A DNA stretch of 64,000 nucleotides from an actinobacterium acAMD-2 (GTDB lineage Bacteria > Actinomycetota > Actinomycetes > UBA12327): NCBI GenBank assembly GCA_000754455.1, contig JNSE01000033.1, forward strand, positions 20,012 to 84,011, in the 5' to 3' direction. Positions 19,242 through 64,000 of this stretch are shown piece after piece (positions within the stretch are counted from its first letter, which is position 1; each line of letters opens with the position of its first letter). Both the position numbers and the translations under genes were made by a program. Under the pieces are notes generated by a model. That model was not told where the DNA came from. It did not search any database and saw nothing but the letters and a program-made list of their open reading frames with translations.

Positions 19242-19481
19242 ACGCGAGTTATCCGTGCGTGGCAAGATCAGCGCAAGAGAAGTTTTCACGGCATGGGTGA
19301 GGGCACCTGGTGTGCCTGCCGAGACCAGAAAGGTGGGCGAAAAGTTTCGTGAGTACGGAACCAGAGTCCAAGGTCGGATGGCCAGAAAACCCTTCTATCG
19401 CAACGGATAGTGAGCCCCCACAGGCAGCATCCTTCACGTCCTCTGGACTGGGCTGGCCAGCAGAAGTGGGTGGTTCTGAGG

Positions 19482-20429
19482 ATGACTGATACCCCGAACT
19501 ACTTCGGTCCATCCGATGCGGCCTTGCAGGCAGCCGTCGATGTTTCACGGGAAACATTGGGTGGTGGCTCGGATACCCCGATTGCCCAAGCTGCGGCCGC
19601 TGCTGTCCTGGTGGCCTCTGGTCGAGTGGCTGATCAACTCCCCCGTCCTCTGCAGACGCGGATTTTGACGATTTCTAACCAGAAGGGTGGCGTAGGTAAG
19701 ACCACGACCACGGTCAACCTGGCGGCCGGCCTAGCGTTCCAAGGGCTTCGCGTTCTGGTCATTGACCTCGATCCGCAGGGCAACGCCTCCACCGCTTTGG
19801 GCATGCCACATCACGATGAGGTCGATTCCATCTACGAGGTCCTGCTGGAAGATATGCCGCTGGCTCAGGCGGTCCAAAAGGTGGAGCAAATCCCCAATCT
19901 CTATGGCGTTCCAGCCACCTTGGATCTCGCTGGGGCTGAATTGGAGCTGGTCTCGCTGGTCGCGCGAGAAAATCGCCTCAAACGAGCGATCGAAACCTAC
20001 CTGAACCAATCAACTGATAGGTTTGACTTTGTCCTCATCGACTGTCCTCCCTCGCTGGGATTGCTCACGGTCAATGCGCTGGTGGCCGCTACTGAAGTGT
20101 TGATTCCGATTCAATGCGAGTACTACGCACTGGAAGGTTTGGGACAACTCGTACGCAACGTGGAAAAGATTCAAGAGTTTCTCAATCCCAATATTTTTAT
20201 TTCCACGATTTTGCTCACGATGTACGACGGCCGCACGCGTTTGTCTGCGCAAGTGGCGCAAGAAGTGCGTGACTTTTTTGGTGAGCGCGTTTTGCCAACC
20301 GCAATTCCGCGATCAGTTCGTGTGTCTGAAGCACCGTCATTTCAGCAAACGGTGTTGACCTATGACCCAGGTTCGACAGGTGCACAAAGTTACTTACAAG
20401 CCGCTCGCGAATTGGCCTTGCAGGCATGA
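19482..20429 (+). CDS. parA: chromosome partitioning ATPase ParA
   Basis: Deviant Walker [23 protein letters not shown] at 19482 chosen within ORF 19410..20429 because GAGGA lies upstream. Confidence 0.93.
19541..19556. promoter_or_regulatory. parS site
   Basis: TGTTTCACGGGAAACA has one mismatch to TGTTTCACGTGAAACA. It lies inside the 5' part of parA. Confidence 0.75.
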
Positions 20430-51076: not shown

Positions 51077-53791
51077 TCACAGCACTGGCTTAAGGCGTTC
51101 TTCAATAGCGGCGATGACGCGCTCGCTGGCTTTGCCATCTCGGCTGGGGAACGTGGAATCAATGCGCTTGGCGTAGAGCTGGGATTGGCTGCTGGTGTCA
51201 TCAAGCAATTCGTGGACTGATCGCACGACATCGTTGACGGTTTCGACCACCGGACCGAATCCATTTTCCGGGTACTTGTAGTAACCAGCGCGACCCACGT
51301 GGCCCCCGTTGAGCACCTTGTCGGCGTCAAACTGGAAGTAGACGCTCGGAGTGTTCAGGTATGCCAAGTTAAAGGCCACTGACGAGTAATCCGTGATGCC
51401 GATTTTGGCGCGGGCGAAAATCGAACGAACATCCGTGTCTTCATAGGTCATCAACTGCACCCACGACGGAACCGTGATTCCCTCGAAGGCTTGTTCCAAG
51501 TTCGGGTGGGCCAAAATCGCGATCTGCAATCCCGCTGCTGCTGCAGCATCACGCAGTTCCGTTGATTCCAGCAGTCCCATCCAGTTGGAAAAGAACTCCG
51601 AATCCTTGAATGTGTCGACCGCGAGGCGTTCTTGGGTCCCCGCAATGTCGTCCTTAACCAACCAGTGGCGCCAGGTCGGACACAGCAAGAGGAGATCTTG
51701 TTTCTTGATCGAGTCTTTGGCACGCAAGAGATCATCAAAACGTGGCAACCCAGTCAGCGCGACTTCCTTGTCGCTGAATCGGTACGAGGTGCCGCTGGCA
51801 GCGATGGATTCGTATTCATTCGGTGTGCTGACGACAAAGAGGAACATCTCTTTGGGATTGAGCCACGCCGAAAGGTCGTCTTTGATGACGCCGTGTTGCA
51901 AAAAGGCGAATTTCCAGCGTGGGACAAAGTGTTCAATGAACTTCGGTGGGTTGGCTTGAGGCGGTCCCGCGTGTGAGGAGGCCAGCAACGTCGTGCGGAA
52001 CATCAACGCCATCCACTTCAGCGATCCGTAGGCCACAAGGCGCGAACCGAACCCTTCTTTGCGCAGGCGCTTCCAGGTCGCAGTGTCCTTGTCAACAACA
52101 AACCAAGCGTTGATGTCTTTGCGTTGGGCACGCGCGTATTTGAACAAGATTTCGCCGCTGTCATCAGCATTACGCACGCGATCCATAAACACCCACGAGC
52201 CACGGAACTTCTTGCGCGCCCATGGCGTGCGAACGTAGATGTTGTAAAACAGCGAGGTAGCGACTTCTCGCAAGGGTTGATTGAAAATCTCATCACCGGG
52301 CGCGGTGTACGGAATACCAATCCGGGTGGGCCCAGTACGCATTTGGATGGGGCGCAAGCGGACGGATCGCTCATTGGTTTCTTCGGTGCGCAGTTCCCAC
52401 GGTTGACCGTTGAGCTGCAGTCGCACCATGCGCCCTGCTGGCACCCACAGGATGCGTTCTTTCATCACCGTGCGGTCGAAGTACACGACATCGCGGTCCT
52501 TAGTAAAGACGGGATCGACCACATCGGTGCCCGAGATGATGCGCTCACTAGGCCGCTCACCGGTGTAGCGGTAGGTGATCAGGGCGAGCTTCATCTGCTT
52601 GTCAAAGTGTCGGAAGACCGCGTATTCCATGTGCCATGGCTCGTCTGACCACGCATGCAGGAGGCATTGGCGCCAAATTCCGCGAAACAAACTAATGGTG
52701 AAGTCGGAAATTTGTGTCTTCTCTAAATACCGAACCAATTCTGCCATCGTGGCATGGAATTCATCGGCTATTTCACCTCTGGCGGCAGTGGCATTTCCCG
52801 CTGAATCCTCCGCTTTGAAGTAATGCGAGAGTTCATACAAGATCATGTTTTGTAGCCACGCCGGTGCAACACCATTGTTGGCTTTTGCAGCATCTTTCAA
52901 GATCGCCAGGTAACCGATACGAGGAACGACGAGGTAGCGTCGTGGGTCCATCGTGCTGTTATTCAAGGTTGATGATTGATCAGCGCGCTTGCGGTAGATA
53001 TAGCGCGCGTTTGACAAGAATCCGACAAGAGGCTCGCTAGCCAACATGTAACGACAGCAGAATTCACCGTCTTCGAAGTTTGGCCGAATGGCTTCGTTAA
53101 ACCGCAAGCCGTTGTCTATCAACCGCGCGCGCTTGACGAATGCAGCTGGGGCACTGCCATGAAAAAATTCTGGAGTAATCGAAAGATCGGTGAGGCGATT
53201 GCCACCGGCGAACAGTCGTTTCAGTGGGTGGGTTTCTTCGATCAGGCCAGTGTCTTCAAAAAACATGATGCGGTTGGTCGCAAACATTTCGGCCTGTGGC
53301 CACAGCTCAATGTGATCGGCCACCACCCGCAGGTAGTCCGATTCCAAGATGTCATCGGGATCGGGGAAGGTCACCCAGGTGCCCTGGGCTACCTCAATAC
53401 CGGTGTTGCGAGCAGCCCCTTGGCCGGCATTTTCCTGGTTAATCACGCGCACCGCGTAGTCAGTGCTGGATTGGAATTGCTCAAGGAGCGAAAGCGAATT
53501 GTCGAGCGAGCCATCGTTGACCAAGATCAGTTCAACGCGGGAATGATCAAAGGTTTGTTGAGCCAGTGATTCCAGGAATTCAGGCAAGTATTGCTCAACG
53601 TTGTAGATCGCTGAGACCACCGAGAAAAGGGGCGCAGTCACGTCTGACACGAGAGCGTAATCTCCTGATTCGCTACGGATTTTTGTGCGGTCCTGGGTGC
53701 CTAAGAAGTTGCTGAAACCGTACCACGGAGGGGCTTTCAGCTTCGGGATCATGAAAGAATGAGGGCACGACTTCATGCCTGGTGAAGTCAT
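51077..53791 (-). CDS. bifunctional glycosyltransferase family 2 / CDP-glycerol glycerophosphotransferase (TagF-like)
   Basis: The N-terminal GT2 region has FSVVSAIYNVEQYLPEFLESL...LILVNDGSLDNS. The C-terminal half is TagB/TagF-like (LLCPTWRHW, ITDYSSVAFN). The start is uncertain, with ATGs at 53791, 53776 and 53752. The track start at 53935 would overlap the divergent gene. Confidence 0.8.
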   Translation of the reverse strand: MTSPGMKSCPHSFMIPKLKAPPWYGFSNFLGTQDRTKIRSESGDYALVSDVTAPLFSVVSAIYNVEQYLPEFLESLAQQTFDHSRVELILVNDGSLDNSLSLLEQFQSSTDYAVRVINQENAGQGAARNTGIEVAQGTWVTFPDPDDILESDYLRVVADHIELWPQAEMFATNRIMFFEDTGLIEETHPLKRLFAGGNRLTDLSITPEFFHGSAPAAFVKRARLIDNGLRFNEAIRPNFEDGEFCCRYMLASEPLVGFLSNARYIYRKRADQSSTLNNSTMDPRRYLVVPRIGYLAILKDAAKANNGVAPAWLQNMILYELSHYFKAEDSAGNATAARGEIADEFHATMAELVRYLEKTQISDFTISLFRGIWRQCLLHAWSDEPWHMEYAVFRHFDKQMKLALITYRYTGERPSERIISGTDVVDPVFTKDRDVVYFDRTVMKERILWVPAGRMVRLQLNGQPWELRTEETNERSVRLRPIQMRTGPTRIGIPYTAPGDEIFNQPLREVATSLFYNIYVRTPWARKKFRGSWVFMDRVRNADDSGEILFKYARAQRKDINAWFVVDKDTATWKRLRKEGFGSRLVAYGSLKWMALMFRTTLLASSHAGPPQANPPKFIEHFVPRWKFAFLQHGVIKDDLSAWLNPKEMFLFVVSTPNEYESIAASGTSYRFSDKEVALTGLPRFDDLLRAKDSIKKQDLLLLCPTWRHWLVKDDIAGTQERLAVDTFKDSEFFSNWMGLLESTELRDAAAAAGLQIAILAHPNLEQAFEGITVPSWVQLMTYEDTDVRSIFARAKIGITDYSSVAFNLAYLNTPSVYFQFDADKVLNGGHVGRAGYYKYPENGFGPVVETVNDVVRSVHELLDDTSSQSQLYAKRIDSTFPSRDGKASERVIAAIEERLKPVL

Positions 53792-53805
53792 GGTGAGGGA
53801 CTGAG

Positions 53806-54237
53806 ATGCTGAACAAGGGTCGTTGGGTTGCTGTCGTTGCATCCTTGGTTGTTGTTGGTTTAGTGGTCGGTGTTTTCGTATCGGTTGGTGTGTCGTTACC
53901 CGCAAAGAAATCCGATCTACCAACTGTTGGTCCAACAGCCAATGAACTCGAGCAACTGGCTGCCGACCTTTCGAGTGGAAAGCCGGATCGCATTTTGGCG
54001 TCTATTGCCGATCTGCCACCAGGTGCCGAAAAAGACGTCCTGAAAACTTTTACCAACATTAAGTTTGTGGATTTCAATACGCAGACAGTTCGCTTTGACA
54101 AGGCCACCGGAGCTGCCGTCGTGGATGCGCGGCTGACACCACGCAAGGGCCCGCCCACCTATGAGCGCGAAGCCTTGGTCAAACGTGGGACGCGCTGGCT
54201 GTTGTATTCCTCCTTGCCAAACCCGAAAGCGACCTGA
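53806..54237 (+). CDS. hypothetical membrane-anchored protein
   Basis: 143 aa with GGTGAGGGA upstream of the ATG and an N-terminal TM segment (WVAVVASLVVVGLVVGVFVSVGV). No family recognised. Confidence 0.45.
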   Translation: MLNKGRWVAVVASLVVVGLVVGVFVSVGVSLPAKKSDLPTVGPTANELEQLAADLSSGKPDRILASIADLPPGAEKDVLKTFTNIKFVDFNTQTVRFDKATGAAVVDARLTPRKGPPTYEREALVKRGTRWLLYSSLPNPKAT

Positions 54238-54301: not shown

Positions 54302-55534
54302 ATGTCCGATCGCAAACAAGTGGTCATCGCCGGTGCAGGTCCGGTGGGAATGGTTGCAGCGCTAAAGCTCGCGCAAGCAGGTCTTGACGTCACCATTTAC
54401 GAAATGGGCGATGATCTCTCGGTTGACTCCAAGGCTTCCACGTTCCACATCCCCACGCTGGAACTGTGCGACGAACTCGGATTGATTGACGACATGCTCG
54501 AGCAGGGACTGATGGTTCCGCTCTTCCAGCAACGCGATCGCAAGGGTGGCGTTATCGCTCAACTTGATTTGTCGCTGTTAAAGGATGAAACCAAGTATCC
54601 CTACCGACTCCAACTTGAACAGTCAAAGTTCACCCGCCTAGTTCGCAAGCACCTAGACAAGTTCCCCAACGCGCACCTTTTCTATGGCGCTGGAGTGGCT
54701 ACTGCAGAGGATCACACTGATTACGCCGTAGCAATTTTGAACGATGGCACACGCGTGGAGTGTGACTGGCTTATTGGGTGCGATGGTGCCAACTCCATGG
54801 TGCGCCAATCCTTTGGTTTTGAATTCCCTGGTGAGACCTTTGCCGAGCGCTTCTTGGTGATGTCAACCACCTATGAATTCCGAGATGTCATGACCGATCT
54901 GGCCGAAGTTGCTTACATCACTGACCCTGACGAGTGGATGGTCTTGCTCAAGACCCCTGACCATTGGCGTTGCTTGATGGCAGTGAGTCCAGATGAGGAC
55001 GATGACGTAGCCGTGACCGATGAGCGGATTCAGGAACGACTAAACAGTGTTCTGGCTGACCTTGGTCACGAGCACGTTGATTTTCCCTTGGTCGGAAAGT
55101 CCTTGTATCGCGTCAATCAACGCGTGGCCAAGAACTTTGCTATCAATCGCATTCTGTTGGCGGGCGATTCAGCGCACATGAATAACCCGCTGGGCGGTTT
55201 TGGTATGAACAGTGGAATTCATGACGCTTGGTCTGCAGGTGATGTGATCGAAGCGGTGGAACTTCGCGGAGCAGATGCACACAAGGCAGCGCAAATTCAT
55301 GGTGTCGTTCGTAGCGAAGTGTGTCACTCGTACGTTCAAGCCAACACCAAGAAAAACTTCAAGGACATGCAGGAAAAGGATGAAGCCGCTCGCCAGGCCC
55401 GCAATGCGATGCTGCGAGCGTTGCAAGATGACGTTGAAGCGCAAAAGGAATACCTGCGAGGGACGTCAATGCTCACGTCAGCCCATGAAGCTATCGCGCG
55501 AGTTCGCAACGAATTGGCTGCGCTGAGTTCTTAA
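54302..55534 (+). CDS. FAD-dependent monooxygenase (aromatic-ring hydroxylase family)
   Basis: VVIAGAGPVGMVAALKL dinucleotide fold and LLAGDSAHMNNPLGGFGMNSGIHD. ATG at 54302 has GGAG upstream. Confidence 0.8.
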   Translation: MSDRKQVVIAGAGPVGMVAALKLAQAGLDVTIYEMGDDLSVDSKASTFHIPTLELCDELGLIDDMLEQGLMVPLFQQRDRKGGVIAQLDLSLLKDETKYPYRLQLEQSKFTRLVRKHLDKFPNAHLFYGAGVATAEDHTDYAVAILNDGTRVECDWLIGCDGANSMVRQSFGFEFPGETFAERFLVMSTTYEFRDVMTDLAEVAYITDPDEWMVLLKTPDHWRCLMAVSPDEDDDVAVTDERIQERLNSVLADLGHEHVDFPLVGKSLYRVNQRVAKNFAINRILLAGDSAHMNNPLGGFGMNSGIHDAWSAGDVIEAVELRGADAHKAAQIHGVVRSEVCHSYVQANTKKNFKDMQEKDEAARQARNAMLRALQDDVEAQKEYLRGTSMLTSAHEAIARVRNELAALSS

Positions 55535-55553
55535 AGCGCCCGGTTCTTAAAAC

Positions 55554-55601
55554 GCTGAGTACCTAAGAAGCTGAGTACCTAAGAAGCTGAGTACCTAACA
55601 A
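55554..55601. repeat. 3 x 16-bp tandem direct repeat (GCTGAGTACCTAAGAA)
   Basis: Units lie at 55554, 55570 and 55586, and the third has one mismatch. They sit in the convergent intergenic region between the monooxygenase and IclR genes. Confidence 0.85.
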
Positions 55602-55621
55602 ATCGTGGAGTGACGGCTCAA

Positions 55622-56401
55622 TCAGTCACTGATGTGGGTCATGGCAGCGCTGATGGCCTGCGCGCTGGCTCGTACCTGCTTAATCACGGTGGCTCGACGC
55701 TTGTCATCGAGTCGGTGGATGGGACCCGCAGTTCCAAGGGCGGCAACGACGTGTCCGTTGACTTCGATCGCGGCAGCGCATCCCCAGATGCCGGCGTCAA
55801 CTTCTTCGTAGGACTGCGTCCAGGTAGCTCGACGAACATCGTCGAGTGCGGTGGGCGTGAGTAGGTCTAGGCGATCAACAGCAATCTCATCGCGTCGAGC
55901 TTCGAGGTAGGCCAGTCGTTCGCGAGTGGGCATGCTGGCCAGGAGGACTCGTGCCACCGAACCCGAGTGCAACGGCATTGCTTGTCCGACCGCAAACTGC
56001 AGTCGAACCGGGTGTGAGGATTCTTCGCGCGCGACGCAGTAGGCGTTTTCACCACCGCGACGGGCGATCAGAACAGTCTCGTCGATGAGGTCGCGCAGAC
56101 TCACCAGCTCGTTGGACGCAGCTTCCAGCAGAGTGGTTCGGCCAGCATCGGCTGCCGCATTGAGGCCCACCACTGCGTCGGTGAGGCGGAATCGACCGTC
56201 ACCGATCGGCTCAACCAATCCGGTTTCGCGCAAGAGCGAGATGTAGCGATACATCGTTGACACCGGCACTTCAACGCGTGCCGCGAGTTCATTAATCGTG
56301 GGGGTGGGGTGCTCCGCGGTGAAGGTCAGCACGGTGGTGATGAGTTTGCGCGCGCTACTGGTGCCAGGCGTTCGGCGGTTGGCTGGCTTACTCGGGCTCA
56401 C
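55622..56401 (-). CDS. IclR family transcriptional regulator
   Basis: 259 aa with an N-terminal wHTH (INELAARVEVPVSTMYRYISLLRETGLVE) and a C-terminal IclR effector-domain pattern. Confidence 0.85.
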   Translation of the reverse strand: MSPSKPANRRTPGTSSARKLITTVLTFTAEHPTPTINELAARVEVPVSTMYRYISLLRETGLVEPIGDGRFRLTDAVVGLNAAADAGRTTLLEAASNELVSLRDLIDETVLIARRGGENAYCVAREESSHPVRLQFAVGQAMPLHSGSVARVLLASMPTRERLAYLEARRDEIAVDRLDLLTPTALDDVRRATWTQSYEEVDAGIWGCAAAIEVNGHVVAALGTAGPIHRLDDKRRATVIKQVRASAQAISAAMTHISD

Positions 56402-56521
56402 ATTCGTCAGCCTATCTGTCTTTCATCTGGTGAGAAACGCGTGCGCTGAAGCCAACAGTGGGGGGCTGGCGCGCTTCGGGTAGCCTTCACCTCGCACTCA
56501 TCGCTTCGGCTGTGGGTGCGG

Positions 56522-56614
56522 GGAGGCGTCGCCTAGTCCGGTCTATGGCGCCGCACTGCTAATGCGGTTTGGGTTTATCGCCCATCGAGAGTTCAAATCT
56601 CTCCGCCTCCGCCA
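56522..56614 (+). tRNA. tRNA-Ser (anticodon GCT), CCA encoded
   Basis: GGAGGCG acceptor stem, anticodon loop CTGCTAA, long variable arm, T-arm GAGAGTTCAAATCTCTC and 3' CGCCTCCGCCA. Confidence 0.9.
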
Positions 56615-56781
56615 CGTGTTGTAGCCGGCGGTAGCAGGCGCACAACACGTCTGCGAGCGCTCGAGATTTGGGAGGAGCGCAGCGACGGGTCTCTCCGCCT
56701 CCGCCACGTGTTGTAGCCGGCGGTAGCCGGCGCACAACACGTCTGCGAGCGCTCGAGATTTGGGAGGAGCGCAGCGACTGG
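56598..56781. repeat. 2 x 92-bp tandem direct repeat that begins inside the T-loop of tRNA-Ser(GCT)
   Basis: 56598-56689 and 56690-56781 differ at 2 positions (56636/56728 and 56687/56779). Each copy holds the last 17 nt of the tRNA, a hairpin and a GGGAGGAGCGCAGCGAC motif. Confidence 0.9.
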
Positions 56782-56867
56782 CCTCACCGCGTCGCAAACC
56801 GAGCGCTCACGCCTGCTGATGGTTGGTCATGCGCGCGCCTGTATGCTTTCGCAGGCTTCACAGCCAC

Positions 56868-56940
56868 GCGCCTGTAGCTCAACGGATAGAGCATCTGACT
56901 ACGGATCAGAAGGTTTGGGGTTCGAATCCCTACAGGCGCA
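56868..56940 (+). tRNA. tRNA-Arg (anticodon ACG)
   Basis: GCGCCTGTAGCTCAACGGATAGAGCATCTGACTACGGATCAGAAGGTTTGGGGTTCGAATCCCTACAGGCGCA. Anticodon loop is CTACGGA. CCA is not encoded. Confidence 0.9.
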
Positions 56941-56956
56941 CTCTTCATTCCACGGA

Positions 56957-57697
56957 CTAGGAAGCGGCGATCACGCGTCGGGTAGGTCCAAGCGGGCGAG
57001 CCGAATCCAAAGCGCTGATTACGGCCTCTACGGACTCCGCAGTCGATTGCCGATCAGTCCACACGTCAACGTCATAGACCAGACCGTGGGAATGGCACAG
57101 CTCGTTGCTGCGTCGGGCCAAGCCGCGGGGGCGTCCTTCTAATCCGCCATCTGCGCGGGCTGATTCGCGTCTTTCAAGCTCCTCTACAGAGCAGTGGACA
57201 CCTACCAGTAGGACGTTGGCATGGGCGGCTTGCAAAACATCAAGGACCTCATCGCACCAGTCAGCGTCCTGGATGAAGTGGTCAATGATCAAGTGAGTGC
57301 CCAGGCGCAGATGTTCGCCCCAACTTCGGTGAAGCCCCGTCAATAGCAGCCGTGTGTGTGGGCTCGTTGCCAGTCGCATACGAGGGATTTCATCGCCAGC
57401 AACGTCGCTGACGTATTCCCAGGCTGCTCGACCATCGTGGGGTTCGCGGGATGCCAGGGTGCTGGTATCACGACCCTGTAATTGCACAAAGCTGATGGGG
57501 TAGAGCGAATCCGCAATCATCAAGACCATGTCGTCGAAGGCAACTCGGAAGAAAGCTCTTGATTGATCGCCACCCGAATCACTGACTAGACGTTCCTGCA
57601 GTGCTTTGCACAATGTCGACTTGCCCGACGAACTGGGACCGTTGACCAGAATCGCAAGAGGCGCTTGCTGACTCTTGTTTTGCGAATCCTGGGTCAT
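56957..57697 (-). CDS. chloramphenicol-phosphotransferase-like (CPT family) P-loop kinase
   Basis: ATG at 57697 within ORF 56957..57832. P-loop VNGPSSSGKST, and the overall pattern (LIIDHF..., VGVHCSVEELERRESAR, YDVDVWT) resembles S. venezuelae CPT from memory. Confidence 0.65.
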   Translation of the reverse strand: MTQDSQNKSQQAPLAILVNGPSSSGKSTLCKALQERLVSDSGGDQSRAFFRVAFDDMVLMIADSLYPISFVQLQGRDTSTLASREPHDGRAAWEYVSDVAGDEIPRMRLATSPHTRLLLTGLHRSWGEHLRLGTHLIIDHFIQDADWCDEVLDVLQAAHANVLLVGVHCSVEELERRESARADGGLEGRPRGLARRSNELCHSHGLVYDVDVWTDRQSTAESVEAVISALDSARPLGPTRRVIAAS

Positions 57698-58739: not shown

Positions 58740-59060
58740 CTACTGAGCGAGTCGAGCGGTGGGCTCCGAAAAGATGTCCAACAGTTCACTGACCTTGTGG
58801 CCGGCTTCGACCGGGTGGCGGAATTTCAAACTGTCGTGCAGTTCGTAGTGGTTTCGGCGACCGATTTTTGTCTTGGTGACATAACCGTCGGCTTCTAGGT
58901 CAGACAAGATCGCCTGGGCAGCTCGCTCGGTAATGCCAACGACCTCGGCAATATCGCGGATCCGTGCGTCTGGGTGGCTATTGAGGTAGATGATCGCGTG
59001 GCCATGGTTGGTCAAAAACGTCCATTGGCGTGAACTGCGCGACGATGGGGCCTCAGTCAT
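58740..59060 (-). CDS. winged helix-turn-helix transcriptional regulator (ArsR/MarR-like)
   Basis: 106 aa with IRDIAEVVGITERAAQAILSDLEADGYVTKTKIGRRNHYEL. It is divergent from the 59485 cluster. Confidence 0.65.
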   Translation of the reverse strand: MTEAPSSRSSRQWTFLTNHGHAIIYLNSHPDARIRDIAEVVGITERAAQAILSDLEADGYVTKTKIGRRNHYELHDSLKFRHPVEAGHKVSELLDIFSEPTARLAQ

Positions 59061-59484
59061 ATGACAACCCTACCTCGTAACCGGACAATCTAATCAGCAT
59101 TTTTATTGCAGGTAATAGTTGGCAGGAAGTCAACTTCATCACGGCAACTTCACCTGTCTCATGCACGCCGATTGGACTTGGCTGGTGCGTTCAACTTCAG
59201 CATGTGCGCTCGCGGTCGATTGGTCCGTGGAGTGACCCGAGCTATACCTAAAGCGTGGTGACAACGGTGTAACTCAACCTTTCGGTGGATGCTGTTTCAC
59301 CGTTTGGCTAGTTGATGGCTACAACCGTTCGTTTTAGTTAAAGATGTCTAAAGGTGCTATCGCCTTTGTCCGACTGTGCGATTACGCAGACCTGTATTTC
59401 TTGATGTAGTTGGCATGTCCGCATCCGTGGACACACAACTGTCACTAATCCTCTAGGGCTAGTGCACACATCAAGGAGAAAACA

Positions 59485-59952
59485 ATGGAGTTCGCAAAGA
59501 CCAAGCGTGGCACCTTGCTCGTCGCTTCACTCGCAACCGCCCTTCTCGTCGGCGGCGGCGTTGCATTCGCATACTGGACCACCACTGGTTCGGGTACTGG
59601 TTCGGCCGCAGCTGGCGACAGCAGCCCCGTCGACGTTACTCAGACCAACACCGTGACCGGTTTGTACCCCGGAGGTCCTGCACAGGACATCGACCTGAAC
59701 ATTGACAACAGCAACGATGCTGATCAGTACCTGGCCAAGGTTACCGTTTCTGTTTCTAGCACCTCTAACGCTGGCTGCACCGCCGCTGACTTCACCGTCA
59801 CCGACGCCACCATCGGCGCTGAGGTTCCTTCTGGCTCCACAAACGCCTACGCCGGCTCCGACACTGGTGCCAGCATCAAGATGAACAACGCTGCCACCAG
59901 CCAGGACGCTTGCAAGAACGCCACGATCAACCTCGCGTTCAACGCCAGCTGA
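59485..59952 (+). CDS. small exported protein with SipW/TasA-class-like leader and two-Cys beta-rich domain (hypothetical)
   Basis: 155 aa with AAGGAG 7 nt upstream. Leader KTKRGTLLVASLATALLVGGGVAFAYWTTTGSGTGSA. Mature part has LYPGG...NIDNSN...GC...SQDACKNATINLAFNAS. The coding call is solid. The function is inference. Confidence 0.8.
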   Translation: MEFAKTKRGTLLVASLATALLVGGGVAFAYWTTTGSGTGSAAAGDSSPVDVTQTNTVTGLYPGGPAQDIDLNIDNSNDADQYLAKVTVSVSSTSNAGCTAADFTVTDATIGAEVPSGSTNAYAGSDTGASIKMNNAATSQDACKNATINLAFNAS

Positions 59953-59994: not shown

Positions 59995-60963
59995 ATGAAC
60001 AAGCCCAACAAGCTTCAGGTCGGCCGTGCGCCGCTTGAACTTGTTGGGCTTGTTCTACTCGCTGGGGTTTTCGTCCTGTTAGCCGTTATCTCAACCGCCA
60101 ACCGTGGTGGAAATAACGACGGCACGATCGCTCTGCCGCCGTCCGCAGTTGAGCCGACGCAGAGCATTGATGATCCACTGGCGGACCCCGTTAAGCGGTC
60201 GACCGTCAAGGTGGCCGGCACCCCTGTAGAAGTGGGTGTCAGCACCGGTGGTGGATCAGGAACAGCAGAAACCGGTGGCGACGAATTGATTGCTACCGGC
60301 CCTGATGGACAGCCACTTCCAAAGAACCCAGCTCTTGAGCCAGGGGACGCAGTTACTTTGCGCTTTGGTGGGTTTGCTCCGCAGGCCAGCGTGGGAGTTG
60401 TGCTTCGCTCGACTCCACGCAACCTTGGTTCGATTCTTGCTGACAACGACGGAGCTGTGACCTACAGCTTCACCGTTCCGGCAGACCTTGAGCCAGGTCG
60501 TCACACCGTGACATTCACCGGCAATGCCACGGATCTTTCTACCGCTTCGTCGTCACGCATTTCTGCAGCGACTGTTTCAAATGGCGTTAACACCGTGGTG
60601 TTTGACTTCACCAACTCTGTTGACGTCATTGATTTGACGCTGAGCTCGACGGTGAGTGGTCCGCTCCTGCCGGGTGTTTCCCGGACCCTCTTGGTGACGG
60701 TGAACAACCCCAACCCCTACCCCGCCAACCTGTACCGGGTTGACGTGGAAGTGGGAACCCCCGACGTGGCTGGCTGCCAGGCTGACTGGGTCAGTGCCGG
60801 TAATTACCTGTACTCATCCGGCCCCCAGCAGGTGATCCCAGCCAATTCAAGTATTTCGGTCGAATTGCCGATCCAACTACTGGATCTGTCTTCGACGGAT
60901 CAAAGTGCTTGCCGGGGCGCGACTTTCCCATTAACGCTGTTTGGACAAGGAGTGGGCGACTAA
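59995..60963 (+). CDS. membrane-anchored protein; C-terminal domain paralogous to the 59485 protein (hypothetical)
   Basis: 322 aa with GAGGAG upstream and an N-terminal TM anchor (LVGLVLLAGVFVLLAVI). A central Ig-like segment (EPGRHTVTFTG) is followed by the C-terminal LLPG...VNNPN...GC...DQSACRGATFPLTLF. Confidence 0.8.
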   Translation: MNKPNKLQVGRAPLELVGLVLLAGVFVLLAVISTANRGGNNDGTIALPPSAVEPTQSIDDPLADPVKRSTVKVAGTPVEVGVSTGGGSGTAETGGDELIATGPDGQPLPKNPALEPGDAVTLRFGGFAPQASVGVVLRSTPRNLGSILADNDGAVTYSFTVPADLEPGRHTVTFTGNATDLSTASSSRISAATVSNGVNTVVFDFTNSVDVIDLTLSSTVSGPLLPGVSRTLLVTVNNPNPYPANLYRVDVEVGTPDVAGCQADWVSAGNYLYSSGPQQVIPANSSISVELPIQLLDLSSTDQSACRGATFPLTLFGQGVGD

Positions 60964-63900
60964 TGCTTAATGCCACCCGCTCCATTTTCACCGGGATGTT
61001 CCGCCGTTTTGGCCTAGGAACCATCGCCGGTGTTGTTCTCGTTTTGGGAATGGGTGTCGCAGCATTTGCTTACTGGACCACTGTTGGTACTGGAGCAGGC
61101 TCTGCTTCAGCATCGGGATTGAATCCACCTACCAACGTTTCACTTGCTGTCGATGACAGCGCAGTGACGGTTTCGTTCACAGGCGTGACGCCGACGAACG
61201 GCACGTTGAGTGGGTACTACGTGCAGCGCAACAACGGCAGTGTCACCAGCAACGCCTGTGGCACAAACCCGGCTACCCCTAGTTCGCTCTTGTCGCTTAG
61301 CGCCACGAGCTGTGTTGACTCCAGTGTCCCTAATGGCACCTACACCTACACGGTCACCTCGGTCTTGAACACGTGGAAAGCAACGAGTGAGCCAAGCTCC
61401 TCTCTGGTCGTCACTGGTGACACTCATGCGCCGAGCCAAGTTGTCTCCATGACGAGCTCGAATGCACTTAAGACGGGTAACACGATTTACTTCCGCGCTG
61501 CTGCTGCTGGGTCTTTGACCTTGAGCGCAGCGGTGACCGATGGCATCTCCGGCCCAGCCTCAGCGACCTTCCCAGCGATCTCAACCACTGGTTGGACTCA
61601 CGCCAGTGAAACCGTTACCACTGGATCGGGCACCAACCCGAAGACCTTTACCTCGAGTACTTTCACGTGGAACGCGGATGCTGCCACGCCAAGTACCTAT
61701 GGAGTCGTTGGTAAAGACGTGGTGGGCAACCAAACCACGACAGACTTAACTTTCGTTGCAGACAACGCTGGGCCTACGGGCGGAACCTTGACCGTGAATG
61801 GCACGACGGGTACCTCAGATGGTGCGGTTAACGTCATCACGACGGGCGCTAACTTCACTGGATCCAAGACGGACTTTAGTGCTGACGCAGGTAGCGGTTA
61901 CCTGTCCACAACGCTTACTCGTGAAGCCTCCACCTCCGATACCTGCACGGCTTGGAGTTCAGCCACGACCATCTCTTCCATTAGCGAAGATGGTTCGGGA
62001 AGCGGCATGACGGTGACCGAGGACAGGTGTTACCGCTACACCTTGACGGGCACTGACAAGTTGGGGAATACCTCGATCCGCAGGGTCACCGTGTCATTTG
62101 TTGATACAACGAACCCGACGCAGGTGATGTCCATTTCCAATGCCACTAATGCGGTTTTAGTTGGCAGGAAGTTGTACTACAACAGCACAAGGGCTGGCGA
62201 GTTTGTCCTAAGTTCAACGGTTACGGACGGTTCGTCGGGGCCAGACAGGGTCATCTTTTCTGCCATTGCCACGGCTGGTTGGAACCACGATGTGGAGACT
62301 GTTACCACCGGCGTTGGCGTCAACCCCAAGACTTTTACGTCCTCTAGGTACTGGTGGACAGCAAATCCGTCTAACCCCAGTGGGCCAGTGCGCGAGATTA
62401 AGGCATACGACAAGGCTGGCAACGAGAAAAAGGATAATCTTGAAACAACGGTCGATAACGCTGGTCCGGCTGTTTCTGGTGCGTTGACGGTTAATGGTGC
62501 GGGTGGTTCTGCTGGTGGTACTACTTCGTACACCAACTCCTCGTTCTCGGGTTCGAAGACTGACTTCACGGATGCTGGTGCGGGTATTTCCACCAATGTT
62601 TTGACCCGTGAATTCGCCACGATCGCTGATGGTGTGTGTGCCAGCTTCGATCCAGCCACGGAGATTGCCAGTATTAGTGAGACCAGCCCGGCTGGTGGTT
62701 GTTACCGCTACACGTTGACTGCCACTGACTTGTTGGGCAACGTTTCGGTGCTCAAGACCACGGTCATGGTTGATCTCACGGCTCCTTCGTCGGTGGTTGT
62801 TTCTGAAACTGGTTCGGCTGGGTACCTGAGTGGTTCGACGTTGTATTTCCGTAGTGGTGTGTCTGGGTCGTTGACGTTGAGTGCTGCGGTTACGGATGCG
62901 TTCCCTGGTGCTGCTTCTGCCACGTTCCCGGCGATTTCGACCACGAACTGGACGCACAACGCTGAGACGATCACTTCTGGTTCGGGTTCTAACCCGGTTA
63001 CTTACACCTCGAGCAGTTTCTCGTGGACTTCTGCCGCTGTTGCTCCTTCGGGTACGCGCACGATCAGTGGTGCTGACAAGGCGGGTAACTCCACGAACGC
63101 CACCCCGATTTCCTTTGTCGCTGACGCTTCGGCTCCCACCGGTGGTGCGTTGACGGTTGCTGGCACGCCGGGTACTTCTGGTGGTGCCACGGTGGCTACG
63201 AACTCGGCGTTGTTCTCTGGTTCTTACACCGACTTCGATGCTGATGCTGGTTCTGGTTTTGCCTCGTCTGTGTTGGTGCGTGAGACGGCCACGTTGACCT
63301 CTGGTGCTTGTGGCGGCTTTGGTAACTCCTCAACGATCACCAGTATTTCTGAGTCGGCGTTGGCTACGGGTTGTTACCGCTACACCCTGACCGGTACTGA
63401 CAATGTGGGTAACACCTCGGTGTTGCGCACCATCGTCCAGGTCGATGTCACTGCTCCTACCGTTGTAGTCACCGCAAATGGTGCGAACTCTAGGCAGACT
63501 GGTTCGACGATTTATTACCGTGGCGACCTGGCTTCGTCGTTGACCCTTGGCGCCGCGGTTACTGATGCTGCTTCTGGTGCTGCCTCGGCCACGTTCCCAG
63601 CTGTTGCCACCACGGGTTGGACGCACAACGCTGAGACGATCTCGTCGGCTGCTTCGACCTCGGGCACGACTAAGACGTACAACTCGTCGAACTTCTCCTG
63701 GACCGCTAGCCCCTCTAACCCGGGTTCTTACACCGTGACCGGTACTGACGCTGCTGGTAACACGGGCACCAGTGCGGTGAGCTTCACCTCTGACACCACC
63801 GGTCCTACCGGCGGAACACTGACCGTTGATGGCGTTACCGCAACATCTGATGGCAAGGCCGTACGTGTTATTACTGATGAAGATGACAACTTCTCTGGTT

Positions 63901-64000
63901 CGAAAACTAACTACAGCGCTGATGCTGGCAGTGGTTACGCCTCGACCACGCTCACGCGTGAGGTGTCGACCAGTAGCTCGTGCCAAAGCTTTAGTTCGCT
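60963..64000 (+). CDS. giant repeat-rich surface protein, 5' partial (continues beyond the window); absent from the supplied ORF track
   Basis: Hand translation from the ATG at 60963 (TAATG overlap with the previous stop, AAGGAG upstream) shows no stop codon in 1012 codons to the window end. Leader GMGVAAFAYWTTVGTGAGSA, an FN3-like segment, then 224-codon modules. Confidence 0.85.
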   Translation, partial: MLNATRSIFTGMFRRFGLGTIAGVVLVLGMGVAAFAYWTTVGTGAGSASASGLNPPTNVSLAVDDSAVTVSFTGVTPTNGTLSGYYVQRNNGSVTSNACGTNPATPSSLLSLSATSCVDSSVPNGTYTYTVTSVLNTWKATSEPSSSLVVTGDTHAPSQVVSMTSSNALKTGNTIYFRAAAAGSLTLSAAVTDGISGPASATFPAISTTGWTHASETVTTGSGTNPKTFTSSTFTWNADAATPSTYGVVGKDVVGNQTTTDLTFVADNAGPTGGTLTVNGTTGTSDGAVNVITTGANFTGSKTDFSADAGSGYLSTTLTREASTSDTCTAWSSATTISSISEDGSGSGMTVTEDRCYRYTLTGTDKLGNTSIRRVTVSFVDTTNPTQVMSISNATNAVLVGRKLYYNSTRAGEFVLSSTVTDGSSGPDRVIFSAIATAGWNHDVETVTTGVGVNPKTFTSSRYWWTANPSNPSGPVREIKAYDKAGNEKKDNLETTVDNAGPAVSGALTVNGAGGSAGGTTSYTNSSFSGSKTDFTDAGAGISTNVLTREFATIADGVCASFDPATEIASISETSPAGGCYRYTLTATDLLGNVSVLKTTVMVDLTAPSSVVVSETGSAGYLSGSTLYFRSGVSGSLTLSAAVTDAFPGAASATFPAISTTNWTHNAETITSGSGSNPVTYTSSSFSWTSAAVAPSGTRTISGADKAGNSTNATPISFVADASAPTGGALTVAGTPGTSGGATVATNSALFSGSYTDFDADAGSGFASSVLVRETATLTSGACGGFGNSSTITSISESALATGCYRYTLTGTDNVGNTSVLRTIVQVDVTAPTVVVTANGANSRQTGSTIYYRGDLASSLTLGAAVTDAASGAASATFPAVATTGWTHNAETISSAASTSGTTKTYNSSNFSWTASPSNPGSYTVTGTDAAGNTGTSAVSFTSDTTGPTGGTLTVDGVTATSDGKAVRVITDEDDNFSGSKTNYSADAGSGYASTTLTREVSTSSSCQSFSS
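61419..64000 (+). repeat. tandem coding repeats of about 672 bp (about 3.8 copies in the window)
   Basis: The 14-mer TGTTACCGCTACAC recurs at 62028, 62700 and 63372, exactly 672 bp apart. Module starts (D-T-x-A/N-P) lie at 61419, 62103, 62772 and 63444. Confidence 0.9.

What the first reader, a model, noticed from the sequence alone, without database searches (positions are those of the whole stretch)
60963..64000. A giant open reading frame is missing from the supplied ORF track
Seen:
- I translated codon by codon from the ATG at 60963 (frame 3, overlapping the previous TAA as TAATG) and found no stop codon through position 64000. That is 1012 codons plus 2 nt.
- For this 3-kb stretch the ORF track lists only short minus-strand ORFs.
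- The track probably omits the frame because it has no stop inside the window.
- The product starts with a signal/anchor sequence and an FN3-like segment (PPTNVSLAV...GYYVQR...YTYTVTSV). It is rich in Thr, Ser, Gly and Ala.
Basis: seen in the sequence. Interest (0 to 1): 0.65.

Follow-up and report, generated by a model that had tools for sequence, protein, structure and literature searches.

The report
Giant surface protein in fibre-like operon
The open frame is real: it is the first 1012 codons of a 1733-residue secreted protein built from a string of immunoglobulin-like domains, encoded with two small partner proteins in an unnamed three-gene operon that is widespread in Actinomycetota and may build a surface fibre with this protein at its tip.

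Summary
Observation confirmed. ATG 60963 overlaps the upstream stop as TAATG, follows an AAGGAG ribosome-binding site, and opens 1012 stop-free codons to 64000. The ORF lister omits it only because it runs off the window.

A 100%-identical public contig completes the gene: 1733 aa and no C-terminal anchor. The layout is:
- a signal peptide ending AFA|YW;
- a Gly-rich N-terminal motif, YWTTVGTGAGSASA;
- an FN3-like domain;
- seven ~225-aa repeats, each two beta-sandwich domains.

AlphaFold and Foldseek support tandem FN3/Ig-like domains. No curated Pfam or NCBIfam family passes threshold.

The gene is last in a conserved operon:
- a 155-aa secreted protein with the same motif plus a ~105-aa beta-sandwich "body";
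- a 322-aa protein with an N-terminal hydrophobic segment and the body, but no motif.

The small-protein family has about 6000 cluster representatives and is unnamed. It has weak, in-register resemblance to TasA.

Inferred model (about 0.45): the motif is a donor strand and the body its acceptor. This would give a membrane base, a small-subunit stalk and the giant protein as a donor-only tip, with no sortase or dedicated peptidase. This is not demonstrated.

The ORF itself is ordinary; the operon is moderately interesting.

The parts
58740..59060 (-). Divergently transcribed 106-aa winged-helix (MarR/HTH_24-like) regulator. It is a context gene and a possible regulator of the operon.
   Evidence: ORF. 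Weak precomputed Pfam MarR_2/HTH_24 hits on the identical gene in L001 and L002. PHROG MarR-type hits at E 5e-5. A regulatory link to the operon is inferred from position only.
59061..59484 (+). 424-nt leader and promoter region upstream of the operon.
   Evidence: One sigma-70-like site at 59061-59089, which is not above the shuffle expectation. No Rfam family at E<=1. RNA fold z-score -1.65, not significant. AAGGAGA Shine-Dalgarno sequence 5 nt before ATG 59485.
59485..59952 (+). Gene 1: 155-aa secreted 'mini-subunit'. It has a signal peptide ending A-F-A, the N-terminal motif YWTTTGSGTGSAAAG, and a ~105-aa beta-sandwich 'body' with one conserved Cys pair.
   Evidence: Identical to P0121, 'hypothetical protein GM44_4210 [actinobacterium acAMD-2]'. 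Alignment A1 of 45 homologs has invariant A29, W31, G35, G39, P62, C98, Q140, C143 and K144. AF2 pLDDT is 80.6 overall, the core 50-155 is >90 and the motif has low confidence. The exhaustive profile search finds 6013 cluster representatives at E<=1e-3. 20 of 45 members give sub-threshold PF12389 (TasA/camelysin) hits.
59995..60963 (+). Gene 2: 322-aa protein. It has an N-terminal hydrophobic segment (aa ~16-33), which is either a membrane anchor or an uncleaved signal. A middle Ig-like region follows, then a C-terminal 'body' domain (aa 212-315) homologous to that of gene 1. It lacks the AxA-YW motif.
   Evidence: hhalign of A1 against this protein: probability 94%, E 9e-8, A1 residues 49-152 aligned to 212-315. 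No match to the donor HMM or regex. In 59 of 65 body-only orthologues a hydrophobic N-terminal segment precedes the body. GAGGAG Shine-Dalgarno sequence before the ATG.
60963..64000 (+). Gene 3, the finding: the first 1012 of 1733 codons of the giant protein. The gene runs 2164 nt past the window end, including the stop codon.
   Evidence: 168 homologs at E<=1e-3, the closest 85% identical and 1747 aa long.
60963..61070 (+). Signal peptide of the giant protein, aa 1-36, with predicted cleavage A-F-A|Y.
   Evidence: Sequence. AF2 helix at 13-29. hhalign of A1 positions 16-44 against giant 23-51 gives probability 94.6%. Cleavage itself is inferred from the -3/-1 Ala rule.
61071..61115 (+). Shared N-terminal motif YWTTVGTGAGSASAS (aa 37-51), proposed to be a donor strand.
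   Evidence: Same motif as gene 1. Disordered in the monomer model, with pLDDT <55 over 29-55. Every large homolog whose N-terminus was recovered carries an A-x-A-[YF]-W... motif after its signal peptide, 26 of 32 ORFs examined. The donor-strand role is inferred.
61131..61412 (+). FN3-like beta-sandwich domain (aa 57-150) with a Cys99-Cys117 pair.
   Evidence: AF2 pLDDT >90. Foldseek matches to tandem FN3 arrays. Conserved in homologs, A2 consensus GYxVTR...C...C.D..VPDGTYTYTVTAV.
61422..62099 (+). Repeat 1 (aa 154-379), made of sub-domain A (158-266) and sub-domain B (272-379, Cys328-Cys356).
   Evidence: Repeat alignment. AF2 shows two confident beta-sandwiches.
62100..62771 (+). Repeat 2 (aa 380-603).
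62772..63443 (+). Repeat 3 (aa 604-827).
63444..64000 (+). Repeat 4, cut by the window end (aa 828-1012 of 828-1059). Repeats 5-7 (aa 1060-1732) lie outside the window.

Best explanation
Shown:
- The frame is a genuine gene for a 1733-residue exported protein of the freshwater actinobacterium acAMD-2.
- It has an N-terminal signal peptide, a conserved Gly-rich N-terminal motif, one FN3-like domain and seven tandem ~225-aa repeats.
- Each repeat is two Ig/FN3-like beta-sandwich domains. The second of the two carries a Cys pair.
- There is no C-terminal anchor.
- It is the last gene of a three-gene operon that is conserved across Actinomycetota.
- The parts are modular. Gene 1 has the motif plus the body domain. 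Gene 2 has a hydrophobic N-terminus plus the body domain and no motif. Gene 3 has the motif plus a long domain array and no body domain.

Inferred:
- After signal-peptidase cleavage at AxA|YW, the freed motif acts as a donor beta-strand. It completes or binds the body domain of another subunit, as the N-terminal strand of TasA does and as TapA's N-terminus does for TasA.
- Gene 2 would then be the acceptor-only, membrane-proximal base.
- Gene 1 would polymerise head-to-tail as a stalk.
- The giant protein, which can donate but not accept, would cap the distal end.
- This would display about 15 beta-sandwich domains, roughly 50-60 nm if extended, as an adhesin-like tip.
- In the minimal case the giant protein plugs directly into gene 2.
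- Assembly would need no sortase, chaperone or dedicated peptidase.

The ligand or target of the repeats is unknown.
For: Real gene and architecture:
- Open frame, Shine-Dalgarno sequence and TAATG coupling.
- Identical contig carrying the full gene.
- 168 homologs.
- Seven repeats at 31-58% pairwise identity and 16 Cys in 8 intradomain pairs.
- AF2 pLDDT 87 with three beta-sandwich domains.
- Foldseek matches to FN3/Ig arrays, the Deinococcus HPI S-layer protein and RTX-adhesin extender repeats.

Operon and modularity:
- The body of gene 1 is homologous to the C-terminal domain of gene 2 (hhalign 94%, E 9e-8).
- The giant protein shares only the signal peptide plus motif with gene 1 (94.6%).
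- In 62 genome loci with at least 5 kb downstream, 40 have a body-only gene next. 48 have a protein of at least 500 aa bearing the motif within 3.5 kb. 25 of those have the same A+B repeats.

The motif is more than a cleavage site:
- W(+2), G(+6) and G(+10) are invariant and G(+8) and G(+15) nearly so, in a family with 39% mean column identity.
- It is unstructured in the giant-protein monomer model.

Pairing signal:
- Large proteins whose motif resembles the small protein's occur without an extra small paralog: 0 of 7 loci have one.
- Large proteins with a variant motif (AWAYWSAGSxPGGxG and similar) come with a second motif-bearing small paralog in about 17 of 20 loci. The raw Fisher p is 1.4e-4, the counts are partly hand-corrected, and there is no phylogenetic correction.

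Precedent:
- TasA polymerises through the N-terminal strand that starts right after the signal-peptide cleavage site, with F29 at +2.
- TapA carries a similar N-terminus and donates it (PMC9674648; PMC10151520).
- Some TasA-superfamily filaments assemble without a chaperone or dedicated peptidase (PMC12518558).

Weak in-register similarity to TasA:
- 20 of 45 members hit PF12389 below threshold, best E 2.5e-5.
- hhalign of A1 against a TasA family alignment gives probability 44%, E 2.3e-4, over 96 columns. It aligns A29 and W31 with TasA A27 (-1) and F29 (+2).

No alternative machinery:
- No conserved extra gene family within +-10 kb.
- By simple sequence-motif (regex) scans: no S26 peptidase with both signature boxes in any of the 84 sources scanned (83 loci plus the window segment), the sortase TLxTC motif in 3, and an LPXTG signal in 1.
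Against: - No multimer prediction or experiment was possible, so strand donation is an inference from modularity and analogy.
- Foldseek of the small-protein model finds only generic beta-sandwiches (complement MG domains, arrestin, TRAP) at E>=0.01. TasA is not among them.
- A profile search of PDB sequences does not find TasA.
- hhalign against a single TasA sequence gives 3% probability. The paralog set A3 against the TasA family also gives 4%.
- The Pfam similarity includes the signal peptide and an 'L-x-PG...N-x-G' strand pattern that is common to many beta-sandwich families. It may therefore be generic.
- The motif has Gly at alternate positions and polar Thr/Ser between them. It lacks the alternating hydrophobic residues typical of known donor strands.
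- In some loci gene 2 looks like a normally cleaved secreted protein rather than an anchor. Some gene-2 proteins keep a degenerate Gly-rich motif. 'Acceptor-only membrane base' is therefore not universal.
- The motif-type versus paralog correlation is confounded by phylogeny.
Confidence: 0.5

Rival explanations
1. A stand-alone secreted or loosely wall-associated Ig-like repeat adhesin or S-layer-like protein. In this reading the shared N-terminal motif is only a specialised signal-peptide cleavage region. Alternatively it is a site for post-translocational modification, such as O-glycosylation of the Thr/Ser run, or for wall association. The two small proteins are co-secreted matrix or accessory proteins, and there is no strand exchange.
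For: The motif sits directly at a canonical AxA site. Thr/Ser-rich N-termini are typical targets of actinobacterial O-mannosylation; this rests on my own knowledge and was not tested. Foldseek also matches S-layer proteins: HPI 8cka at E 2e-7 and SbsB. There is no significant structural match of the small protein to TasA.
Against: This does not explain why the body domain occurs once with the motif and once without it in adjacent genes. It does not explain why Gly at +6 and +10 is invariant and Gly at +8 and +15 nearly so, when a cleavage site needs only positions -3 and -1. It does not explain why the type of motif on the large protein tracks the presence of an extra small paralog. No anchoring mechanism for a 1733-aa protein with a cleaved signal and no C-terminal anchor is offered.
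Confidence: 0.3
2. A one-to-one anchoring pair rather than a fibre. The giant protein is tethered to the membrane by its N-terminal motif binding the body domain of the 322-aa protein. The 155-aa protein is a competitor, a chaperone-like cap or a regulator of that interaction and does not polymerise.
For: The same modular evidence as for the best explanation. TapA acts only as an initiator or chaperone by strand donation and does not enter the filament (PMC10151520).
Against: Gene 1 has both donor and acceptor elements, which is the hallmark of a self-polymerising subunit. It is the most conserved and most widespread member: 6013 representatives, and often present without a detected large protein.
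Confidence: 0.12
3. A sortase-assembled Gram-positive pilus or an LPXTG-anchored adhesin. This is the known way in which Actinomycetota build pili and anchor large adhesins.
For: Tandem Ig-like domains and an N-terminal signal peptide are shared with such proteins.
Against: The full-length protein ends ...TVYIRKR. It has no LPXTG and no C-terminal hydrophobic segment; the only LPXTG-like match is LAGTS at position 1571. The sortase TLxTC motif occurs in 3 of the 84 sources scanned and an LPXTG signal in 1. No conserved extra family is found nearby.
Confidence: 0.02
4. A chance open frame or pseudogene, or a phage or mobile-element tail-fibre-like gene inserted next to the tRNA genes.
For: tRNA-Ser and tRNA-Arg lie 4 kb upstream. 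A related contig, L002, has an 11-nt indel that breaks the frame.
Against: 1733 stop-free codons against 13-68 stops in the other frames. 168 homologs with conserved domain landmarks. A confident AF2 model. No PHROG hit for the giant or the small protein. No integrase or phage genes in L001. The same operon occurs in varied chromosomal contexts.
Confidence: 0.01

Closest known systems
TasA / TapA / SipW biofilm-fibre system of Bacillus subtilis (Pfam PF12389 Peptidase_M73/camelysin; TasA superfamily)
   Same: - A small secreted beta-sandwich subunit whose mature N-terminus begins right after an AxA-type cleavage site, with an aromatic residue at +2 (W31 here, F29 in TasA).
- A second operon protein (TapA there, the giant protein here) carries the same N-terminal segment on an otherwise unrelated body.
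- There is weak, in-register profile similarity over the signal peptide, the donor segment and the first strands (PMC9674648; PMC10151520).
   Different: - The subunit core is about 105 aa, against about 210 aa for the TasA jelly-roll.
- No hit passes the Pfam threshold for the window protein. Foldseek and PDB searches do not find TasA.
- There is no adjacent SipW-type peptidase.
- The motif is Gly-rich and polar.
- An extra acceptor-only gene is present.
- The motif-bearing partner is a protein of 1000-2000 aa built from Ig repeats, not a 25-kDa initiator.
Archaeal TasA-superfamily donor-strand filaments (AbpA bundling pili, Saci_0406 threads, CanX cannulae, AbpX)
   Same: Secreted beta-sandwich subunits exported through Sec and signal peptidase I. 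Assembly is proposed to be chaperone-free, by N-terminal donor-strand complementation. Some lack a dedicated peptidase in the neighbourhood (PMC12518558; bioRxiv 10.64898/2026.01.04.697558).
   Different: No detectable sequence link was tested or found here. Those filaments are homopolymers with no giant donor-only partner. They are archaeal or thermophilic.
Chaperone-usher (type 1/P) pili of Gram-negative bacteria
   Same: The logic of the parts is shared. Polymerising subunits carry both an N-terminal extension and an acceptor groove. Special subunits lacking one of the two elements sit at the ends: the tip adhesin FimH has a groove only, and there are terminator subunits.
   Different: The polarity is reversed, because here the adhesin-like end would be donor-only. 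There is no periplasmic chaperone, no usher and no outer membrane. No homology was detected.
Giant Ig-like repeat adhesins and S-layer proteins (Big_13-containing RTX adhesins such as 6xi1; Deinococcus HPI 8cka; SbsB 4aq1)
   Same: Long arrays of Ig/FN3-like beta-sandwich 'extender' domains. The B sub-domain gives sub-threshold Big_13 matches: PF19077 at 23 bits against a cutoff of 27, in 5 stretches. Several homologs carry precomputed PF19077 hits.
   Different: - No type I secretion signal and no RTX repeats.
- No C-terminal anchor and no SLH domain.
- The repeat unit is a fixed A+B pair with a disulfide in B.
- The N-terminal motif is shared with operon partners.
Sortase-assembled pili of Actinomycetota (SpaA-type)
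   Same: Same phylum. Surface fibres are made of Ig-like subunits with a distinct tip protein.
   Different: No LPXTG, no pilin motif and no sortase. The defining features were tested and not met.

Membership tests
TasA superfamily / Pfam PF12389 (tested on gene 1, the 155-aa protein) | Sequence match to the family profile above the curated threshold | tested here: inconclusive
   The window protein gives no hit even at E<=10. 20 of 45 family members hit PF12389 at E<=1, best 2.5e-5. hhalign of A1 against the TasA family alignment A4 gives probability 44%, E 2.3e-4, over 96 columns. The paralog set A3 gives only 4%.
TasA superfamily / Pfam PF12389 | Jelly-roll/beta-sandwich fold similar to TasA (5OF1, 8AUR) | tested here: not met
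   The AF2 model is a beta-sandwich. Foldseek against PDB returns only generic sandwiches at E>=0.01, with no TasA in the top 50. The core is about half the size of TasA.
TasA superfamily / Pfam PF12389 | Sec signal peptide followed immediately by an N-terminal strand with an aromatic residue at +2 | tested here: met
   A27-x-A29|Y30-W31 is invariant or nearly so. It aligns with TasA A27|A28-F29. The role of F29 is described in PMC9674648.
TasA superfamily / Pfam PF12389 | Adjacent dedicated SipW-type signal peptidase (typical, not universal) | tested here: not met
   No conserved extra family within +-10 kb of 79 loci. No ORF carries both S26 signature boxes, by a simple regex scan. None was seen in the 64-kb window by motif scan.
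TasA superfamily / Pfam PF12389 | Polymerisation by donor-strand complementation | not testable with these tools
Sortase-dependent (LPXTG) surface proteins and pilins | C-terminal LPXTG, hydrophobic segment and basic tail; a sortase gene nearby | tested here: not met
   The C-terminus is ...TVYIRKR with no LPXTG. Sortase and LPXTG motifs are essentially absent from the 84 sources scanned.
Big_13 bacterial Ig-like domain (PF19077), tested on sub-domain B of the repeats | Pfam match above the gathering score | tested here: not met
   23.0 bits against a cutoff of 27, E 1.2e-4, 5 stretches. The best stretch is 1461-1514 aligned to profile positions 42-101 of 102. Several homologs have precomputed PF19077 hits. 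It is best described as a divergent relative.
Fibronectin type III (PF00041), tested on aa 57-150 | FN3 fold and/or a Pfam match | tested here: inconclusive
   There is no Pfam hit in this protein. One homolog, P0010, has PF00041. The fold is supported by AF2 and by Foldseek top hits to FN3 tandems.
Phage tail-fibre or receptor-binding proteins | Match to phage protein families or a phage gene context | tested here: not met
   No PHROG hit at E<=0.01. The neighbours are chromosomal.

The most novel reading that the evidence does not exclude
The operon encodes a previously unrecognised pilus class of Actinomycetota that needs no sortase and no chaperone. A ~105-aa TasA-like mini-subunit polymerises by N-terminal donor-strand complementation. 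An acceptor-only subunit, retained in the membrane by an uncleaved signal, forms the base. A donor-only protein of 1000-2000 aa built from Ig repeats forms the tip adhesin. Loci with variant tip motifs use a dedicated adaptor paralog. The subunit family (about 6000 clusters at 50% identity) would then mark a major unannotated surface organelle of soil and freshwater actinobacteria.
Probability: 0.35. Interest if true: 0.75.

Novelty: new variant of a known kind. Interest (0 to 1): 0.5.

Why it matters
The giant ORF by itself is an ordinary edge-of-window artefact hiding an ordinary kind of protein, a large Ig-repeat surface protein.

The value lies in its context:
- The ORF and its two partners belong to families that public annotation calls 'hypothetical'.
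- The small-protein family is very large: 6013 cluster representatives, and 194 species-level genomes, including cultured Arthrobacter, Knoellia, Promicromonospora, Agrococcus, Cryobacterium and Actinoplanes.
- The three proteins have a donor/acceptor modularity that matches the logic of donor-strand-complemented filaments.

If the model holds, it would add an actinobacterial branch with a giant tip protein to the TasA-like filament world, which is currently being mapped in Bacillota and Archaea. It would also explain how large adhesins with no C-terminal anchor stay on actinobacterial cells. The prediction is concrete and cheap to test in cultured carriers.

Tried and rejected
- **Curated families.** Pfam, NCBIfam and PHROGs gave nothing above threshold for the three operon proteins, even at E<=10 for NCBIfam.
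- **PDB sequence searches.** These found nothing for the giant protein and nothing meaningful for the small-protein profile.
- **Tandem Repeats Finder.** It sees no DNA-level array, because the repeats are only 31-58% identical at protein level.
- **First self-BLAST of the giant protein.** This gave no usable rows. I replaced it with motif-anchored slicing and MAFFT.
- **Dedicated signal peptidase.** I looked in the window by motif and in 79 loci by clustering and found none.
- **Riboswitch in the leader.** I looked for a known riboswitch, such as c-di-GMP, in the 424-nt leader and found none. The fold is not significant.
- **Direct TasA link.** hhalign against a single TasA sequence is not significant. 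Against a TasA family alignment it is suggestive only. Foldseek is negative.
- **Literature.** A search for actinobacterial TasA-like or camelysin pili found no paper describing this operon.
- **Tat export.** The n-region FRRFGLG resembles a twin-arginine motif. Arg-rich n-regions are common in high-GC actinobacteria and homologs vary, so this is left undecided.
- **Fused-chain AF2 test.** I considered testing strand insertion with a fused-chain construct.

Full report
**1. The observation**

Translating 60963-64000 gives 1012 codons and no stop. The start context is ...AAGGAGTGGGCGACTAATG. The ATG shares its A with the TAA of the upstream ORF 59995..60963, and a strong Shine-Dalgarno sequence lies 10 nt upstream. 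The other five frames of the same stretch contain 13-68 stops.

The ORF lister shows nothing for this frame. By its own description it does not list ORFs that run off an end. What it does list there are five short minus-strand ORFs and one 90-aa plus-strand ORF in another frame.

**2. Completing the gene**

I looked up the exact 322-aa product of the upstream ORF in public assemblies.
- It returned a 24.8-kb Logan contig, L001, which is 100% identical to the window over the shared 7089 nt.
- On L001 the gene runs 4052-9253 and encodes 1733 aa ending ...TVYIRKR*.
- There is no LPXTG, no C-terminal hydrophobic segment and no SLH-type domain.
- A second hit, L002 (GCA_003476305.1), is 99.4% identical but has an 11-nt gap that breaks the frame. 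That contig also ends inside the repeats.

The small upstream protein is identical to 'hypothetical protein GM44_4210 [actinobacterium acAMD-2]'. The window therefore comes from that uncultured freshwater actinomycete.

**3. Anatomy of the giant protein**

| Residues | Feature |
|---|---|
| 1-36 | Signal peptide: basic n-region, helix 13-29 in the model, A-F-A\|Y site |
| 37-51 | Motif YWTTVGTGAGSASAS |
| 57-150 | Beta-sandwich with a Cys99/Cys117 pair |
| 154-1732 | Seven tandem units of 219-232 aa, 31-58% identical to one another |

Each repeat unit has two halves.
- Half A carries landmarks such as SGPxSATFPAIxTTGWTH and a DxAGN turn.
- Half B carries GGxLTVNG...TDFxADAGSG...C...SISE...GCYRYTLTGTDNxGNTS and a conserved Cys pair.

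The protein is 55% Thr+Ser+Gly+Ala, is acidic, and has 16 Cys in eight intradomain pairs.

AlphaFold2 on residues 1-380, with a 36-sequence alignment, gives pLDDT 87.
- It shows three confident beta-sandwich domains at 57-150, 158-266 and 272-379.
- The motif region 29-55 is unstructured, with pLDDT below 55.

Foldseek against the PDB returns tandem FN3/Ig arrays:
- contactin FN1-FN3, E 3e-8;
- titin FnIII tandems;
- the Deinococcus HPI S-layer protein, E 2e-7;
- an RTX-adhesin extender segment;
- SbsB.

No curated family passes threshold. The nearest is Big_13 (PF19077) at 23 bits against a cutoff of 27, on the second half of the B sub-domains. Sequence search of the PDB finds nothing, and PHROGs finds nothing.

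There are 168 homologs at E<=1e-3.
- The closest is 85% identical and 1747 aa long.
- Many are about 980-aa versions with fewer repeats and an extra C-terminal domain.
- Their source names are 'hypothetical protein', 'beta strand repeat-containing protein' and the like.

**4. The operon**

Three plus-strand genes, each with a good Shine-Dalgarno sequence, follow a 424-nt leader. They are divergent from a small winged-helix regulator.

Gene 1 (59485..59952, 155 aa) has a signal peptide ending A-F-A and the motif YWTTTGSGTGSAAAG.
- It then has a ~105-aa domain that AF2 models as a beta-sandwich, with core pLDDT above 90.
- In an alignment of 45 homologs the invariant positions are A29, W31, G35, G39, P62, C98, Q140, C143 and K144.
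- That set covers the -1 cleavage residue (with -3 nearly invariant), the +2 Trp, Gly at +6 and +10 (with +8 and +15 nearly invariant), and a Cys pair.

Gene 2 (59995..60963, 322 aa) has an N-terminal hydrophobic segment and a middle Ig-like stretch.
- Its C-terminal domain (212-315) is homologous to the gene-1 body (hhalign 94%, E 9e-8).
- It has no AxA-YW motif.

The giant protein shares only the signal peptide and the motif with gene 1 (hhalign 94.6% over 29 columns). Within the 64-kb window the motif occurs only in these two genes.

**5. Conservation of the operon**

A scan of one genome per species found relatives of gene 1 in 194 species.
- Nearly all are Actinomycetota: Actinomycetes, Acidimicrobiia and Thermoleophilia.
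- They include cultured Promicromonospora, Angustibacter, Agrococcus, Knoellia, Cryobacterium, Glaciihabitans, Arthrobacter, Actinoplanes and a Streptomyces.

An exhaustive profile search finds 6013 cluster representatives at E<=1e-3 and 2561 at E<=1e-10.

I ran local HMMs for the motif region, the body and the A+B repeat over 79 loci.
- The recurring order is motif+body, then body-only, then often a second motif+body paralog, then a large motif-bearing protein.
- Of 62 loci with at least 5 kb downstream, 40 have the body-only gene next.
- 48 have a protein of at least 500 aa with A-x-A-[YF]-W within 3.5 kb, and 25 of those have the same repeats.
- Every large homolog whose N-terminus I could recover starts with a signal peptide, the motif and the FN3-like domain.
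- The 'third' genes are full-length paralogs of gene 1 (hhalign 99.5%).

All-against-all clustering of neighbourhood ORFs found no other family conserved across loci. By simple sequence-motif (regex) scans, S26 peptidase boxes, the sortase TLxTC motif and LPXTG signals are essentially absent.

**6. How it probably works**

Two things are shown: the export signals and the modular distribution of two elements, the N-terminal motif and the body domain. Three combinations occur: both elements (gene 1), body only (gene 2), and motif only on a long domain array (gene 3).

This is the part-list logic of a donor-strand-complemented fibre. One strand-plus-acceptor subunit can polymerise. One acceptor-only and one donor-only protein then cap the two ends, leaving no unsatisfied strand or groove.

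The closest precedent is TasA.
- Its fibre forms because the N-terminal strand (residues 28-38, directly after the SipW site, with F29 buried) completes the next subunit.
- TapA carries a similar N-terminus and is proposed to donate it (PMC9674648; PMC10151520).
- Related archaeal filaments assemble without chaperones, and some lack a dedicated peptidase (PMC12518558; bioRxiv 10.64898/2026.01.04.697558).

Four observations go beyond analogy.
- The motif is far more conserved than a cleavage site requires.
- It is not part of any folded domain in the giant-protein model.
- The type of motif on the large protein tracks the presence of an extra small paralog. Motifs like the small protein's (WTTxGxG) come without one (0 of 7 loci). 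Variant motifs (AWAYWSAGSxPGGxG, AWSYWLAAVTAGSAGS and others) come with one in about 17 of 20 loci. The raw Fisher p is 1.4e-4. The counts are partly hand-corrected, and there is no phylogenetic correction.
- Profile comparison with a TasA family alignment, although only 44% probable, places the cleavage site and the +2 aromatic residue in register. In addition, 20 of 45 members give sub-threshold PF12389 hits.

I therefore propose the following.
- Gene 2 is the membrane-proximal base.
- Gene 1 is the stalk.
- The giant protein is a donor-only distal cap that presents about 15 beta-sandwich domains.
- Direct one-to-one docking of the giant protein on gene 2 is the minimal variant.

**7. Weaknesses**

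Nothing here shows strand insertion. No multimer prediction was available.
- The small-protein model matches only generic beta-sandwiches, not TasA.
- The PDB profile search misses TasA.
- Comparisons with a single TasA sequence, and of the paralog set with the TasA family, are not significant.
- Part of the Pfam similarity lies in the signal peptide and in an L-x-PG...N-x-G strand pattern common to many sandwich families.
- The motif is Gly-rich and polar rather than alternately hydrophobic.
- Some gene-2 orthologues look like ordinary cleaved secreted proteins, and some keep a degenerate Gly-rich segment. In the window protein this is STGGGSGTAETGGD at aa 83-96.

The main rival is that the motif is a specialised cleavage, modification or wall-association signal on co-secreted proteins. 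It keeps appreciable weight (0.3).

**8. Comparison and novelty**

As a protein, the giant ORF is a new member of a familiar kind, the large Ig/FN3-repeat surface protein.

As a system, the operon works most like TasA/TapA and other donor-strand filaments. However, it fails or leaves open the membership tests: profile threshold not met, fold match not found, no SipW. It also has features not described for those systems:
- a half-size subunit;
- an acceptor-only partner;
- an adaptor paralog in many loci;
- a giant donor-only partner.

Literature searches found no description of it. I rate it a new variant of a known kind.

Confidence is about 0.97 that the gene and its architecture are as described. 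It is about 0.9 that it belongs to the conserved operon. It is about 0.45-0.5 for the donor-strand mechanism.

**9. Verdict**

The finding is true and its stated cause is mundane: a window-edge artefact. The gene it uncovers sits in a widespread, unannotated and mechanistically suggestive operon. Interest is 0.5.

Noticed in passing
L002:2400-4045 (NCBI GCA_003476305.1, DMUO01000188.1), corresponding to window ~60900-62520: This public MAG contig is 99.4% identical to the window but has one 11-nt gap. The gap splits the giant ORF into two pieces, and the contig ends inside the repeats. It is either an assembly error in repetitive DNA or a real frameshift in a sister strain.
   Followed up: partly
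L005 (CALQPL010000113.1, 4576 nt): A contig deposited as 'MAG: Bifidobacterium breve' carries the same three-gene operon. Its small protein is 88% identical, and its 322-aa protein and giant N-terminus are near-identical. This is almost certainly a mis-binned freshwater actinobacterial contig.
   Followed up: no
window 56522-56614 and 56868-56941: tRNA-Ser(GCT) and tRNA-Arg(ACG) lie about 2.5-3 kb upstream of the operon. G+C rises locally to 0.60-0.62 around 55500-57500, against about 0.55 elsewhere. No integrase was seen.
   Followed up: partly
window 60241-60282 (aa 83-96 of the 322-aa protein); also L037:10375-11049 and L056:901-1428: Body-only (gene 2) proteins often carry a degenerate Gly-rich segment after their hydrophobic N-terminus: STGGGSGTAETGGD here, FGLWNRGGAGAGGGG in L037 and HWASSGVGVG in L056. 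They look like gene-1 duplicates whose cleavage site and motif have decayed, which would leave an uncleaved signal-anchor.
   Followed up: partly
window 60990-61010 (aa 10-18 of the giant protein): The n-region reads TGMFRRFGLG, which resembles a twin-arginine (Tat) motif. Many homologs also have RR before the hydrophobic core. Export by Sec or by Tat was not resolved.
   Followed up: no
A2 consensus (homologs P0009-P0034, ~980 aa), C-terminal ~200 residues: The common ~980-aa homologs end in a distinct, conserved C-terminal domain (...VTLTNxGAGNDT...CTLNxGxLxLGSTAYTT...). The window protein lacks it and ends directly after repeat 7.
   Followed up: no
window 51077-53935 (-): A 952-aa fusion of a family-2 glycosyltransferase with a CDP-glycerol glycerophosphotransferase domain (Pfam E 3e-27 and 7e-31). 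This is teichoic-acid-type wall polymer synthesis a few kb from the surface-protein operon.
   Followed up: no
L004:712-4279 (-) and 4515-7253 (+): Upstream of a homologous operon in another MAG lie three tandem paralogous ~390-400-aa multi-pass membrane proteins with a conserved C-terminal cytoplasmic tail. A 912-aa BTAD/AAA/TPR regulator is also there. In that locus no body-only gene was detected between the small gene and the 1853-aa large gene.
   Followed up: no
L025:562-3376 and 10001-17658; L050:9935-13427 and 18675-20224: Some genomes carry two copies of the cassette within 20 kb, so the system duplicates locally.
   Followed up: no
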